The position numbers were made by a program. From Zootoca vivipara (Eukaryota), in the NCBI RefSeq assembly GCF_963506605.1, contig NC_083280.1, positions 82,770,001 to 82,834,000 on the forward strand: DNA of 64,000 nucleotides, read 5' to 3'. Of this stretch, positions 32,601 to 35,600 are shown in pieces. Numbering within the stretch: position 1 is the stretch's first letter; every line of letters begins with the position of its first letter.

Positions 32601-35600
32601 GTGGGAACATAAATCATCCAAGTCTAAGAACATTGAACAGCCAGAAGGCCCATGTACCCCAGCATCCTGTTCTCACAGTGGTTATGCAGATACTGGTAGG
32701 AAACCTGTGTCTGATACCTAATTTGCAGTTTGTAGGAGTTGAGCATAGTGAATACCACATGATAGTATTGCTTTGAGGCAGCCTGGCATTTATCTTTATT
32801 GAATGTCAGCCAGCCAAATTGTTGACCCACTCCTAGCTTTTGCATGGTTGATATGCCATACTTTCATTGCAGATAAATGGCATTGCACTAGATAATAAAT
32901 CACTGACTGAATGTGAAGCTTTGCTGCGAAACTGCAGGGAATCACTTACGCTTTCATTGATGAAGGTGAGTGTTGAAGGCGGTGGGAGGTAAAAGGGAGT
33001 AAAGGACACACCTTCCATTTTAAAACATGGGCTTACTTGCATCTACTGCATAGCTGTTAAAAATACTGCCTAACAAGCTGCAAATTATACCAGCAGGAAG
33101 AAGAGGGCAGAGCACAACAAGATGCTGCAATCTTAGCATTCTGCTGAGAGCATGTTCTTTTTTATTTCTCCACCTAGGTTTTTCCTCAGAGCTCAAGCTC
33201 ATCTTGGAGTGGTCAAAACATATTTGAAAACCTCAAGGATTCAGAGAAAATATCAAACTGCAGGGTCCATGCATCGGAGGTGCAGGCTCAGAATAAAAGA
33301 AACTTAAAACACAACAGCTCAACCCAAACAGACATTTTCAATCCAGACATAATGGACACCAAGAAGGATCAGAATGATCAGGACAGCAACTTATACTGCG
33401 ATCTCAAACCATTCTCCAACACGGTTTTGCACACAGAGTCTCACCAGAGTGCAGTCCATGGGTGCCACAGTACCTCTGAACACAGCCTAGGCTCCTTTAG
33501 TCCAGATGTGTTTCGGGAACCAAGCTATGGCATTGTTGGTCTGGACAGCAGGAGACTGCCTTTTGAGTCCACAGTAGCAGACTGCATGGTGATTGAGAGT
33601 GTGTTGGACAAAGGGCATGGTGAGAAGCACAGCGGTGGCACTTGGCCCAAGATAATGGTCAACATTACTGCTGCAGAAACAGAAAAATTCTCTGTGTACA
33701 AAAAGCCAAAACAACGGAAGTCCATTTTTGATCCGGACACTTTCAAGAGGCCTCTGACTCCTCCTAAGATGGACTACTTGTCGCCCAGTCAGGTGTTGGG
33801 ACATTCACCCCAGCCCTCCAAAACGGAAACCATTTCCACCCCTCCCACCCCTCCCAAGAGAAGCGATTCTATTAAGTTCAAACACAAACAGCAAGCAAGT
33901 TCCACCTCGGACTCCACCGCCATGACCGGCTCGCCACCATCCAGTCCTGCCACAGCTCAGCCTCCTGTGTCCATTGAACTCAAGCCAGATTGTGGTATTC
34001 ATAAGGGGCGAGGTAGACCTTCTGGACATTATTACAGGGAAGAGGGGGTTGACACTGCACATTTGCCTTCAAGGAAATCCTATGAAGATGACATTGGTTT
34101 TCAAAGAATGGAAGAGCCCAAAATTAAAAGGCCAAGGCCCAAGTCTGCTCCTGCCTTGAGACATAAACTAACCCCTGTGCCTATTCCTAATCCACCTCAT
34201 CAGGTAGATACGAGAATGTGAAGTGTGGGTCCTGGCACATATTTTCCAAAGTGATTTATTTGTGTGGTGTACCTTTTCTGCATCAAGGCAAAGAGCAAAA
34301 GAAAAGGGTTAACTGGTTGTCCTACGTGTATGCTTAAGATCCCAGGAATTGGAAGTTGAAATGAAGTGGAACATTTGTGGGGCAGTTACACACATGGTAG
34401 TTGCCTTTACTAGGAAGCAAAACCCCATAATGCAGAAGTGGCCCATTAGCAACCTGTAGTCAAGATCCAACCCTAAGGCAGTTTACATTTGAGCCCTTGG
34501 TTGAACTTCCAATTTGTAATCAGATTATGATAGATTAACTCACAGTTCCACTTGTAGGGTGGGATTCATCAAGCTGTAAAGAGAAGCTGTTCTCCATTTT
34601 GATATTACGTCTTGCATGTAAATATGAAATTGTATACAGTGGTGCCTCGCTAGACGAATGCCCTGTTAGACAAATTTTCCGCTATACGAATAGGTTTTGC
34701 AATCAGAGGTTGCCTCGCAAGATGACGAGGTTTTCTATGGCCGCCGCATCGTCTTGCAAAGCGTGGCCATAAAAACCTCCGATCACAAAACCTACATTTG
34801 TCTAGTGATAGGGGCATTTGTCTAGTGAAAGGGGAACCAGCTGTAGCAAGGGAAGAAGGCAAAGGAAGATCAGCTGTCAGCGCCTCTCAGCTGATTTTTC
34901 TTTGCCTTTTTCCCGCGCTGCAGCTGGTTCCCCTTTGTGTTCCGCTGGTCTCTGCCGATGAGGGTCAACCAGCAGAACACAAAGGGCTGTAGCGCGGGAA
35001 GAAGGGGGGGGAGAAGTGGAGGAACGGATCCGTTCCTCCACTTCTCCCCCCCGCCGCCATGCCACGGACACCCAGGAGCATCGGACAGTGTTTCGGAGAA
35101 GCACTGCGCCTCTCTGAAGCCCCGTCTGATGTTGGCTTTGTGCCAGGCAGCGGGAGAAGCGGTTCCTCCGTTTCTCCCGCCGCAGCCTGTGACACAGCTG
35201 TTTGCCTCAGCAGCCGCCGCCTGACAAGCAGAGGAACCGCTTCTCCCCGCCGCCTGGCACAAAGCTGGCATGGGACGGGGCTTGCCGGCTCTGTCAGGCG
35301 GGGGTGAGGGAAAGCGGAGGATCGCCCCCGCCTCGCCCGACAGAGCTGGCATTTGTTGGTGCTGCGGGGGGCTTTTCGCCGCCTGCTTTCCCCTTGGCTT
35401 GGGGAAGGCAGGCGGCGAAACACCCCGCTTTCTCCCGCTCACCTCAGCGGCGGGCTTTCTCTTGCTCGCCCTCAGGCCGACCCGGGATCGGCCGTATCAG
35501 CGCCGATCTGTTACCTCCATGGATGTGGACAGGCTGCTTGGATGAGTGAAACCGACCACCTGTCTCTTTGATCCTTGCCCATCCTGGCTCCTAAAAGCGA

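What the first reader, a model, noticed from the sequence alone, without database searches (positions are those of the whole stretch)
34828..35430. ~600-bp chain of back-to-back GC-rich hairpins
Seen: consecutive local inverted repeats with almost no spacer, at about 34828-34936 (~49-bp arms), 34933-34984, 35005-35052, 35079-35131, 35134-35267, 35284-35350 and 35364-35428. The block is CpG-rich in an AT-rich intron, follows a mariner-type TIR (34637) and is cut off by an L2 fragment. Ordinary MITEs fold as one long hairpin; this is a serial array of different hairpins. Many arm mismatches are transitions that G-U pairs could tolerate. Inference: either cargo grown by repeated fold-back/template switching, or a structured RNA/ssDNA module (Drosha/ADAR substrate, mobile CpG island) carried by a non-autonomous transposon.
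Basis: partly seen in the sequence, partly recalled or inferred. Interest (0 to 1): 0.65.

Follow-up and report, generated by a model that had tools for sequence, protein, structure and literature searches.

The report
Chain of DNA palindromes in lizard intron
A 680-base GC-rich run of seven back-to-back DNA palindromes lies between a small transposon and a broken L2 retrotransposon in an intron of a lizard DLG5 gene; it looks like a scar of repeated fold-back copying that has since decayed, not an RNA gene.

Summary
All seven inverted repeats are present within a few bases of the stated coordinates. The block folds far better than dinucleotide shuffles on both strands (z -22 and -19) and with DNA parameters (z -17). 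It is the only multi-hairpin run in the 64 kb.

The window is a lacertid lizard DLG5 locus, not human.

The block is not transposon cargo. The Tc1-like MITE closes on itself at 34843-34845, and no further TIR lies downstream.

Nothing points to selection on an RNA:
- G:T against A:C arm mismatches are 16 against 12 (p=0.57).
- Strand preference flips between hairpins.
- Mismatches concentrate at CpG positions, 14 of 44 against 18 of 193.
- No Rfam family reaches its threshold.

Stems overlap, hairpin 1 has a third, forward copy (forward-inverted-forward), and h3, h5 and h6 share a core.

Best reading, at 0.5: fold-back or template-switch copying at the MITE-end/L2 junction, followed by neutral decay. 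Main rival, at 0.3: the interior of an uncatalogued repeat family. That could not be tested, because no lizard genome was available. Interest is low to moderate.

The parts
33127..34206 (+). Large DLG5 coding exon upstream of the intron that holds the finding
   Evidence: The ORF 33178-34221 is 92-94% identical to Podarcis muralis DLG5. tblastn of P0123 aligns aa 777-1124 here.
34635..34845 (+). Complete Tc1/mariner-like MITE (34637-34843) with a TA on each side. Its right tip is atypical: GAAAGGGGAACCAGCTG where GAGGCACCACTG is expected.
   Evidence: TIR match. It aligns with its own reverse complement and with the 287-bp MITE at 16681-16967. It folds as one hairpin from the first to the last base, z -7.8. 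CpG o/e is 0.92.
34828..34936 (.). Hairpin h1: 49-nt arms with an 11-nt loop. Its left arm overlaps the last 16 nt of the MITE.
   Evidence: I1, 88% complementary; z -13.5 on + and -10.3 on -.
34905..35005 (.). Hairpin h2 (core 34931-34986), extended on both sides. Its left arm reuses the right arm of h1. Its right arm ends in a third, forward copy of the h1 segment (34986-35005).
   Evidence: I7, I8, D4; three-way alignment, forward/inverted/forward; h1 against 34986-35005, z 8.8, 0 of 200 shuffles as good.
35005..35052 (.). Hairpin h3: a perfect 24+24-nt palindrome with no spacer, centred on GGATCC
   Evidence: I4, 100%; z -7.9 and -9.0. P(0 mismatches in 24) = 0.03 at the pooled divergence.
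35079..35131 (.). Hairpin h4, the weakest (19 of 26 arm positions match)
   Evidence: z -5.6 on + and -3.4 on -.
35117..35283 (.). Hairpin h5: about 70-nt arms. Each arm carries a shortened copy of the h3 palindrome. Its left arm overlaps the right arm of h4.
   Evidence: I2, I3, I12, D5, D6; z -11.0 on + and -12.8 on -; h3-h5 z 5.1.
35283..35351 (.). Hairpin h6. It starts at the base where h5 ends and shares a motif with h3 and h5.
   Evidence: I9, I19; z -5.7 and -5.4; h5-h6 z 5.1, h3-h6 z 4.0.
35364..35428 (.). Hairpin h7
   Evidence: I5, 88%; z -7.8 on both strands.
35429..35504 (.). GC-rich tail of the block. It is not significantly folded and contains a direct repeat about 27 nt apart.
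   Evidence: D7, D11; z -2.2 and -1.6.
35498..36587 (+). L2 ORF2 (reverse transcriptase) fragment, aa 488-845 of a 1009-aa Podarcis L2 protein. It lacks both the 5' and the 3' end and has decayed (CpG o/e 0.28).
   Evidence: (RVT_1).
37074..37208 (+). Next DLG5 exon. It sets the intron as 34207-37073.

Best explanation
The block is a cluster of DNA-level palindromes. It is not an RNA gene and not transposon cargo.

It fills the gap between the right tip of a small Tc1-like MITE and a truncated L2 fragment, in the 2.9-kb intron after the large exon of DLG5 in a lacertid lizard.

The most likely origin is repeated fold-back (snap-back) or template-switch copying. A growing 3' end is extended a little, folds back on the strand it has just made and copies it. 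Sometimes it runs on into the previous hairpin. Then it starts again.

This could have happened in one messy repair of a break at the transposon end, or in several replication errors. Palindromes that were already there would favour the latter.

Afterwards the arms diverged by ordinary neutral mutation, including methyl-CpG decay.

Shown: the palindromes, their overlaps, the shared modules, the strand symmetry, the CpG-weighted decay, and the position outside the MITE.

Inferred: the copying mechanism, the polymerase, the number and order of events, and the source of the GC-rich seed sequence.
For: 1. The palindromes fold equally well on both strands and with DNA parameters. Which strand is more stable differs between hairpins: h1 on + (-86.3 against -71.5), h5 on - (-124.4 against -116.3).
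2. Neighbouring stems overlap, so they cannot all form at once. h2's extended left arm (34905-34949) is h1's right arm; h5's left arm (from 35117) is h4's right arm; h5 and h6 share base 35283. A copying history predicts this. A stable RNA fold does not.
3. The h1 segment occurs forward (34840-34859), inverted (34905-34924) and forward again (34986-35005). At the three variable positions the third copy agrees twice with the first and once with the second. This is the layout of a small inverted triplication (PMC13334657, abstract read).
4. h3, both arms of h5, and h6 share a GGGAGAAG-GGAGGAAC-like core. Of 45 segment pairs tested, 4 were reached by at most 1 of 200 shuffles.
5. Loops and spacers are short, 0-27 nt. 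78% of bases are paired in the MFE fold.
6. h1's left arm covers the last 16 nt of the MITE, and the right arm carries their inverted copy. Either the copying came after the MITE or it rebuilt the MITE's tip.
7. Arm mismatches are 14 of 44 at CpG positions against 18 of 193 elsewhere (Fisher p=3e-4). 24 of 32 are transitions, with no strand bias (16 against 12, p=0.57). This is neutral decay after formation.
8. Precedent exists:
- Template switching creates perfect hairpin stems in single events (PMC8794818, abstract read).
- Pol theta alternates between untemplated extension and snap-back copying, giving products up to 138 nt in vitro (PMC4912351, passages read).
- Fold-back inverted duplications of about 5-34 bp form at yeast breaks (PMC11724301, start of abstract in the search listing only).
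Against: - No ancestral or orthologous empty site was seen, so the copying history is read from one sequence only.
- The block is about 660 bp, and roughly half of it is 'seed' sequence with no identified template. Published snap-back inserts are far shorter: median 7 bp in the reconstituted end-joining assay and up to 138 nt in ssDNA extension in vitro (PMC4912351, passages).
- The high GC (0.64) and CpG o/e (0.73) in a 40%-GC intron are not explained by the model.
- A TE family whose consensus already has these hairpins would look the same in a single copy.
- The evidence for several events is not significant. Arm divergence is only marginally heterogeneous (chi-square p=0.075, Monte Carlo p=0.069).
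- The reading of the MITE's right tip rests on a gapped match to the expected TIR end. No second copy of this MITE subtype was available.
Confidence: 0.5

Rival explanations
1. The block is the interior or 5' part of an uncatalogued repeat family whose consensus already contains these hairpins. Examples are the CpG-rich 5' UTR of an internally deleted L2 (a SIDE-like derivative) or another GC-rich element. On this reading it arrived by transposition and was not built on the spot.
For: - It directly abuts an L2 ORF2 fragment in the same 5'-to-3' order that a 5' UTR would have.
- High CpG content is typical of young TE copies here: the MITEs have o/e 0.92, 1.55 and about 1.2.
- Other CpG-rich palindromic Tc1-like MITEs exist in the window.
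- Short internally deleted CR1 derivatives are described (PMC6740152, search listing only).
- Imperfect stems at birth would reconcile 9% arm divergence with the retained CpGs.
Against: - There is no second copy or fragment in 64 kb, while real families here recur 2-6 times.
- None of the 120 lizard L2-like proteins fetched matches the block (best tblastn E 0.023).
- The translated block has no relative among 5.8 billion or 1.84 billion predicted proteins. This is weak evidence, because non-coding DNA is rarely translated into such sets.
- CpG o/e differs sharply between the block (0.73) and the adjoining L2 (0.28).
- The L2 piece lacks its 3' end, so the pair is not a mobilisable unit as it stands.
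- h1 contains an inverted copy of the MITE tip, which an imported element would not have.
Confidence: 0.3
2. The block is a functional structured-RNA module, transcribed within the DLG5 pre-mRNA. It would be a cluster of miRNA or hairpin-RNA precursors, or an ADAR/Drosha substrate.
For: - It lies in an intron on the sense strand of an expressed-type gene.
- Five hairpins are of pre-miRNA size, 48-69 nt.
- Rfam miRNA-precursor models give sub-threshold hits.
- Template switching is a published source of new miRNA hairpins (bioRxiv 10.1101/2023.04.19.537475, title and start of abstract in the search listing).
Against: - None of the 96 listed Rfam matches reaches its gathering score. They fall on both strands and on many unrelated miRNA models, as any hairpin would.
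- There is no strand bias in G-U-compatible mismatches: 16 against 12.
- The favoured strand flips between hairpins.
- Stems overlap and exclude each other.
- h3 has a 22-bp stem with a 4-nt loop, unlike a Drosha substrate (this criterion is recalled, not taken from a call).
- Mismatches follow CpG decay.
Confidence: 0.05
3. The block is a CpG island or regulatory element of DLG5, such as an alternative promoter or enhancer. Germline hypomethylation would preserve its CpGs, and its palindromes would be dimeric factor sites. This reading can coexist with a fold-back origin.
For: - It meets the usual length, GC and o/e criteria over 659 bp (GC 0.64, o/e 0.73).
- By my own reading of the sequence, it holds five CAGCTG palindromic sites. 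No separate count was run.
- The CpGs persist although the arms differ by 9% at non-CpG positions.
Against: - CpG positions have diverged 3.4 times more than other positions between arms. The CpGs have therefore been decaying and were not protected.
- Young MITEs in the same window show equal or higher o/e without being islands.
- No conservation or expression data could be consulted.
Confidence: 0.1
4. The block is an assembly or sequencing artefact, such as chimeric fold-back reads.
For: Perfect spacer-less palindromes such as h3 can arise from library artefacts (recalled, not taken from a call).
Against: - Six of the seven hairpins are imperfect, with a mutation spectrum typical of evolution: CpG-weighted and transition-rich.
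- The arms are only 19-70 nt, far shorter than read-level fold-backs.
- The flanks are ordinary, and there are no N in the window.
Confidence: 0.03

Closest known systems
Template-switch mutations (TSMs) that create reverse-complement repeats and hairpins (Monttinen and Loytynoja, PMC8794818, abstract read; Loytynoja and Goldman, PMC5453318, search listing)
   Same: Nearby reverse-complement copies with short spacers. A perfect stem made in one event (h3). Both strands equivalent.
   Different: Published TSMs are single events of short length. Here at least seven adjoining palindromes cover about 600 bp. No ancestral state is available to show the switch points.
Small inverted triplications (SIT; PMC13334657, abstract read) and DUP-TRP/INV-DUP (PMC11293582, search listing)
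   Same: Forward-inverted-forward arrangement of one segment with short spacers (34840-34859, 34905-34924, 34986-35005).
   Different: The SIT average given in the abstract is 148/160/148 bp with a 30-bp spacer. Here the shared segment is 20-49 nt, and it is only the first part of a longer chain.
Snap-back (in cis) synthesis in alternative end joining: Pol theta (PMC4912351, passages read), SD-MMEJ (PMC5728401 and PMC2943611, search listing), yeast fold-back insertions (PMC11724301, search listing)
   Same: Alternation of new sequence and an inverted copy of what was just made would give back-to-back hairpins at a repaired junction. The block sits exactly between two broken TE ends.
   Different: Scale: median 7 bp in the reconstituted end-joining assay and up to 138 nt in ssDNA extension in vitro, against about 660 bp here. 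No break, enzyme or microhomology was demonstrated.
Tc1/mariner MITEs
   Same: The neighbour at 34637-34843 is one: TA flanks, TIRs shared with three other sites in the window, folds as one long hairpin.
   Different: The hairpin block lies outside its right TIR, has no TIRs of its own, and is a chain of separate palindromes rather than one.
Polycistronic miRNA or hairpin-RNA clusters
   Same: Several pre-miRNA-sized hairpins in a row in an intron, on the sense strand.
   Different: No family match at threshold, no strand asymmetry, overlapping stems, and no conservation data.

Membership tests
Cargo of a non-autonomous Tc1/mariner element | The block is bounded by the element's two TIRs with TA duplications | tested here: not met
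   The left TIR at 34637 pairs with a right TIR that ends at 34843, before the block. None of the 4 TIR matches (up to 3 mismatches) lies downstream of the block.
Cargo of a non-autonomous Tc1/mariner element | Other copies of the same element with the same interior | tested here: inconclusive
   None in the 64-kb window. The genome itself was not available.
Known structured RNA family (Rfam 15) | A covariance-model score at or above the family's gathering score | tested here: not met
   96 matches at E<=1 and none at threshold. The best was 46.6 bits against a cut-off of 137. Hits fall on both strands.
Selected RNA hairpins (any family) | Strand-specific tolerance of G-U pairs, with one consistently favoured strand | tested here: not met
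   G:T against A:C mismatches are 16 against 12, p=0.57. h1 favours + and h5 favours -.
Selected RNA hairpins (any family) | Compensatory changes across homologous copies | not testable with these tools
   No second copy in the window. No vertebrate genome collection was open.
Template-switch / fold-back inverted duplications | Nearby reverse-complement repeats with short spacers, equivalent on both strands | tested here: met
Template-switch / fold-back inverted duplications | An ancestral or orthologous sequence lacking the inverted copy, showing the switch points | not testable with these tools
   Needs other lacertid assemblies or population data.
Small inverted triplication | One segment present forward, inverted and forward in a row | tested here: met
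   34840-34859, 34905-34924 and 34986-35005 (D4, I1, I7). The size is below the published average (PMC13334657, abstract).
CpG island | At least 200 bp, GC at least 0.5, CpG o/e at least 0.6 (criteria recalled) | tested here: met
   659 bp, GC 0.64, o/e 0.73.
CpG island | Germline hypomethylation or promoter activity | tested here: inconclusive
   The only indirect evidence is that CpG positions diverged 3.4 times more than other positions between arms, which speaks against protection. No methylation data were available.
L2 5' UTR / internally deleted L2 derivative | The same block-to-ORF2 junction recurs in other copies, and the unit keeps the L2 3' end needed for mobilisation | tested here: not met
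   The adjoining L2 piece stops at aa 845 of 1009. The later L2 3' piece lies in a different intron, beyond two DLG5 exons. Recurrence elsewhere is untestable here.
Pol theta end-joining filler DNA | A short templated or untemplated insert at a repair junction | tested here: inconclusive
   The position between two truncated TE ends fits. The length of about 660 bp is far above the 7-bp median and the 138-nt in vitro product reported in PMC4912351.

The most novel reading that the evidence does not exclude
A single break at the end of a Tc1-like transposon was bridged by a run of iterated 'extend, snap back, copy' cycles. The enzyme would have been a low-fidelity repair polymerase or the L2 reverse transcriptase finishing a truncated insertion. 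In one step this wrote about 660 bp of new, GC-rich, CpG-island-grade sequence made of seven hairpins into a gene's intron. This would be de novo birth of a hairpin cluster and of a CpG island from almost no template, at a scale about five times that of the longest snap-back product seen in vitro.
Probability: 0.15. Interest if true: 0.6.

Novelty: new member of a known kind. Interest (0 to 1): 0.3.

Why it matters
If the block was built locally, it is an unusually long natural record of serial fold-back copying at a transposon junction. It would show how a few replication or repair errors can write several pre-miRNA-sized hairpins and a CpG-rich island into an intron. That is raw material for the template-switch route to new hairpin RNAs proposed in the literature. 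If it proves to be a repeat-family interior, it is ordinary. In either case, the evidence here gives no support for a selected RNA structure.

Tried and rejected
- **Rfam at permissive E-values** over 34300-36000 gave only generic hairpin hits, all below threshold.
- **Pfam** on the block's ORFs (208 aa on -, 106 aa on +) gave nothing.
- **Word-indexed protein search** with the 208-aa ORF: 570 candidates, none at E<=0.001.
- **Full HMMER search** of 1.84 billion representatives with the same ORF: 0 hits. Both protein searches are weak tests for non-coding DNA.
- **tblastn of all 120 L2-like proteins** against 34600-35520 found no similarity. This rejects the idea that the block is scrambled upstream L2 coding sequence.
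- **TRF** shows the block is not a tandem array. The only repeat is a 20-nt x2 unit in the MITE's right TIR.
- **RT template jump onto a structured cellular RNA** (rRNA expansion segment or snRNA) was considered and set aside:
  - Rfam gave no such hit.
  - There is no + strand G-U bias.
  - The arms are purine-rich rather than rRNA-like by my reading of the purine fractions.
- **One L2 with a 1-kb insert** was rejected. Two conserved DLG5 exons (37074-37208, 37368-37511) lie between the two L2 pieces.
- **TIR words in the paper library**: 0 papers.
- **Phrases for hairpin arrays in transposable elements**: 1 irrelevant paper.
- **MITE and lacertid literature search**: nothing on this element.
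- **Not used:**
  - The genome-contig scan and search_dna_similar, because by their tool descriptions they hold only bacterial, archaeal, phage, plasmid and E. coli records.
  - Metagenome contigs and viral contigs, which were closed.
  - Supplementary files of papers, which were not opened.
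Full report
**1. Where the window comes from**

The window has no N and no soft-masking.

The ORF at 33178-34221 is 92-94% identical to DLG5 (discs large MAGUK scaffold protein 5) of the wall lizard Podarcis muralis. Identity falls in other squamates, turtles, birds and mammals.

tblastn of the Podarcis protein P0123 maps about 30 DLG5 exons on the + strand, from 10633 to 62221.

The reverse-transcriptase ORF next to the finding is 82-85% identical to Podarcis muralis L2-type proteins and 84% to one from Zootoca vivipara.

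I therefore take the contig for a lacertid lizard close to, but not identical with, P. muralis. It is not human.

Only a single exon ORF was searched, and a named reference protein was compared with the window.

The finding lies in the 2.87-kb intron 34207-37073, between the large exon (33127-34206) and the next exon (37074-37208).

Yes.

| Hairpin | Coordinates | Notes |
|---|---|---|
| h1 | 34828-34936 | 49-nt arms, 88% complementary |
| h2 | 34931-34986 | 95% complementary |
| h3 | 35005-35052 | 24+24 nt, perfect, no spacer |
| h4 | 35079-35131 | weakest; 19 of 26 arm positions match |
| h6 | 35283-35351 | |
| h7 | 35364-35428 | |

Folding of the whole 603 nt:

| Fold | MFE (kcal/mol) | Shuffles (20) | z |
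|---|---|---|---|
| RNA, + strand | -415.4 | -266.2 +/- 6.7 | -22.2 |
| RNA, - strand | -400.5 | -255.7 +/- 7.6 | -19.1 |
| DNA parameters | not repeated here | | -17.3 |

Taken alone, each hairpin beats 200 dinucleotide shuffles on both strands. The z-scores run from -3.4 to -13.5. The 76-nt tail 35429-35504 does not (z -2.2 and -1.6).

Two natural controls use the rest of the window:
- Minus-strand self-BLAST of all 64 kb lists 14 local inverted repeats, and 5 of them lie in this 600 bp.
- 639 windows of 200 nt were scanned and the folding energy was corrected for GC. Five of the ten strongest outliers are the consecutive windows 34801-35500. The other five are single MITEs at 16701, 27301, 47501, 52401 and 59801.
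- Another GC-rich spot (31501-31700, GC 0.64) reaches only z -1.9.

Composition:

| Region | GC | CpG o/e |
|---|---|---|
| Block 34846-35504 | 0.64 | 0.73 |
| Intron to the left | 0.40 | 0.12 |
| Adjoining L2 | 0.53 | 0.28 |
| Whole window | 0.43 | 0.31 |

**3. The neighbours**

*Left neighbour: a MITE.*
- The TIR CAGTGGTGCCTCGCTAGACGA at 34637 has three relatives in the window (15887, 16683, 16945), against 0 expected by chance.
- The stretch 34635-34845 aligns with its own reverse complement from TACAG to CTGTA, and with the complete 287-bp MITE at 16681-16967.
- It folds as one long hairpin from the first base to the last (z -7.8).
- It is therefore a complete, TA-flanked Tc1/mariner-type MITE of about 207 bp.
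- Only its right tip is odd: GAAAGGGGAACCAGCTG where GAGGCACCACTG is expected.
- The hairpin chain starts in that tip and runs on outside the MITE. No TIR lies downstream. The block is not this transposon's cargo.

*Right neighbour: an L2 fragment.*
- Protein homology to a 1009-aa Podarcis L2 ORF2 (P0011) starts at 35498, about aa 488 (...SVTSxDVDRLLG...). It runs with frameshifts and a stop to 36587, aa 845.
- The L2 3' end at 37589-37867, with its (ATT)n tail, lies in a different intron beyond two DLG5 exons. It is a separate insertion.
- The L2 piece beside the block is therefore truncated at both ends.

**4. Anatomy of the chain**

- *Overlapping stems.* h2's pairing extends to 34905-35005, so its left arm reuses h1's right arm. 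h5's left arm begins at 35117, inside h4's right arm. h6 begins at the base where h5 ends (I1, I7, I8, I2, I9).
- *A third copy of the h1 segment.* GCTGTAGC..GGGAAGAAGG occurs forward at 34840-34859, inverted at 34905-34924 and forward again at 34986-35005. In the three-way alignment the third copy agrees with the first at two variable positions and with the second at one, as if all three came from one source.
- *A shared core.* h3, both arms of h5, and h6 share a GGGAGAAG-GGAGGAAC-like core. Each arm of h5 contains a shortened h3-type palindrome (D5, D6, I10, I12). Of 45 segment pairs tested against shuffles, four stand out: h1/34986-35005 (z 8.8), h5/h6 (5.1), h3/h5 (5.1) and h3/h6 (4.0). 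h2, h4 and h7 resemble nothing else.
- *Short loops and spacers.* They measure 0-27 nt, and 78% of bases are paired in the MFE fold.
- *Not a tandem array.* TRF finds none. The tail does hold a direct repeat 27 nt apart (D7).
- *Inverted copy of the MITE tip.* h1's left arm covers the last 16 nt of the MITE, and its right arm carries their inverted copy.

**5. RNA or DNA?**

I counted them.

- Over the seven non-overlapping hairpins there are 16 G:T mismatches (G-U on a + strand RNA) and 12 A:C mismatches (G-U on a - strand RNA). The binomial p is 0.57.
- h1 is more stable on + (-86.3 against -71.5 kcal/mol). h5 is more stable on - (-124.4 against -116.3).
- In the stems, 24 of 32 mismatches are transitions. 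The mismatches sit at 14 of 44 positions that are part of a CpG in either arm, against 18 of 193 other positions (odds ratio 4.5, Fisher p=3e-4).
- One caveat: counting a site as CpG if either arm has CG also counts new CpGs.
- This is the ordinary spectrum of methyl-CpG decay with a transition bias, not tolerance for wobble pairs.
- Rfam at E<=1 gives 96 matches and none near its gathering score. They are generic miRNA-precursor models hitting both strands.
- Overlapping, mutually exclusive stems also argue against one stable RNA fold.

I find no signal of selection on an RNA structure. Covariation across copies could not be tested, because there is no other copy in the window and no vertebrate genome collection was available.

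**6. How it most likely arose**

Four features are what repeated fold-back or template-switch copying leaves behind: strand-symmetric palindromes, copies that run on into the previous hairpin, a forward-inverted-forward triplication, and shared modules.

Published precedent:
- Template switching during replication makes a perfect reverse-complement stem in one event (PMC8794818, abstract read).
- Small inverted triplications have exactly the DUP/INV/DUP layout (PMC13334657, abstract read).
- Pol theta alternates between untemplated extension and snap-back copying of what it has just made (PMC4912351, passages read). One in vitro product of 138 nt was built this way. The median insert in its reconstituted end-joining assay is 7 bp.
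- Fold-back inverted duplications of about 5-34 bp arise at yeast breaks (PMC11724301, start of abstract in the search listing only).

The position suggests that a break there was involved. The block sits exactly between a MITE with a damaged tip and an L2 fragment cut short. This is inference.

The direction of synthesis cannot be read from the overlaps, which are symmetric. It could run rightward from the MITE end, or leftward from the L2 end. The second option would allow the L2 reverse transcriptase to be the enzyme.

One event or several remains open:
- Arm divergence ranges from 0 of 24 (h3) to 7 of 26 (h4). The heterogeneity is not significant (chi-square p=0.075, Monte Carlo p=0.069).
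- h3's perfection has P=0.03 at the pooled rate of 32 of 237.

After formation the arms diverged by about 9% at non-CpG positions and 32% at CpG positions.

**7. What this does not explain**

- The model gives no source for the roughly 330 bp of unique 'seed' sequence.
- It does not explain the 64% GC and the still-high CpG o/e.
- The length is about five times that of the longest snap-back product I could cite.
- A repeat family whose consensus already carries imperfect hairpins would explain the retained CpGs (a young copy) together with the arm mismatches (present at birth). It would look the same in a single copy.

Against that rival:
- There is no other copy or fragment in 64 kb, while real families here recur.
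- None of the 120 L2-like proteins matches the block (best E 0.023).
- Translated searches find no relative of the block (weak tests).
- CpG o/e jumps from 0.73 to 0.28 at the L2 boundary.
- The adjoining L2 piece lacks a 3' end.
- h1 holds an inverted copy of the MITE tip.

I put local fold-back origin at 0.5 and repeat-family interior at 0.3. The remainder is divided among a regulatory CpG island (which can coexist with a fold-back origin), an RNA module and an artefact.

**8. Comparison with known kinds, and novelty**

The block works like template-switch or fold-back inverted duplications and small inverted triplications. It meets their sequence-level features. The defining proof, an ancestral state without the copy, could not be obtained.

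It fails the tests for transposon cargo and for any Rfam family.

It meets the compositional definition of a CpG island, but its CpGs have been decaying.

Literature searches found no description of this element:
- The TIR words are in no paper of the library.
- Phrases for hairpin arrays in TEs found 1 irrelevant paper.
- The MITE and lacertid search found nothing relevant.
- Repbase and Dfam could not be consulted, and supplements were not opened. A catalogued lizard repeat therefore cannot be excluded.

**9. Verdict**

The second (a structured RNA module carried by a transposon) is not supported.

I rate it a new member of a known kind of mutational product, of low to moderate interest (0.3). 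The boldest reading still open is a single repair or retrotransposition event that wrote about 660 bp of new hairpin-rich, CpG-island-grade sequence. It would deserve about 0.6, and I give it about 0.15.

Noticed in passing
window 35498-36587 and 37589-38025: Two collinear L2 ORF2 pieces (aa 488-845 and 912-1009 of P0011) look like one L2 with a 1-kb insert. They are in fact separated by two conserved DLG5 exons (37074-37208, 37368-37511), so they are independent fragments in neighbouring introns. The first lacks its 3' end, which is unusual for a LINE insertion.
   Followed up: partly
window 15885-16967: A solo left TIR of the same Tc1-like family (15885-15921, TA-flanked) lies about 760 bp upstream of a complete 287-bp MITE (16681-16967). 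The outer TIR pair could define a 1.08-kb composite element with a purine-rich interior.
   Followed up: partly
window about 31470-31735: A second type of CpG-rich Tc1-like MITE, with ...GGAGGTATGACTGTA ends and a GC-rich palindromic interior (CpG o/e about 1.2). GC-rich palindromic MITE interiors therefore exist in this genome.
   Followed up: no
window 27343-27478, 47552-47687, 52428-52565, 59787-59936, partial 29300-29345 and 29798-29902: A family of palindromic MITEs of about 140 bp, each folding as one hairpin, with 4 full and 2 partial copies in 64 kb at 79-94% identity.
   Followed up: no
window 34795-34834: A 20-nt tandem duplication (CATTTGTCTAGTGA.AGGGG x2, 95%) inside the MITE's right TIR. 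Both units have lost the two CpGs that the left TIR keeps.
   Followed up: no
window 36590-36735 and 41826-41894: A short repeat (84% over 69 bp) follows the 3' break of the L2 piece. It is preceded by CCAAT-like and TATATAA-like motifs. Its identity is unknown.
   Followed up: no
window 10633-62221: About 30 DLG5 exons on the + strand are 75-100% identical to Podarcis muralis DLG5. The window covers aa 119-1904 of the 1904-aa reference.
   Followed up: yes
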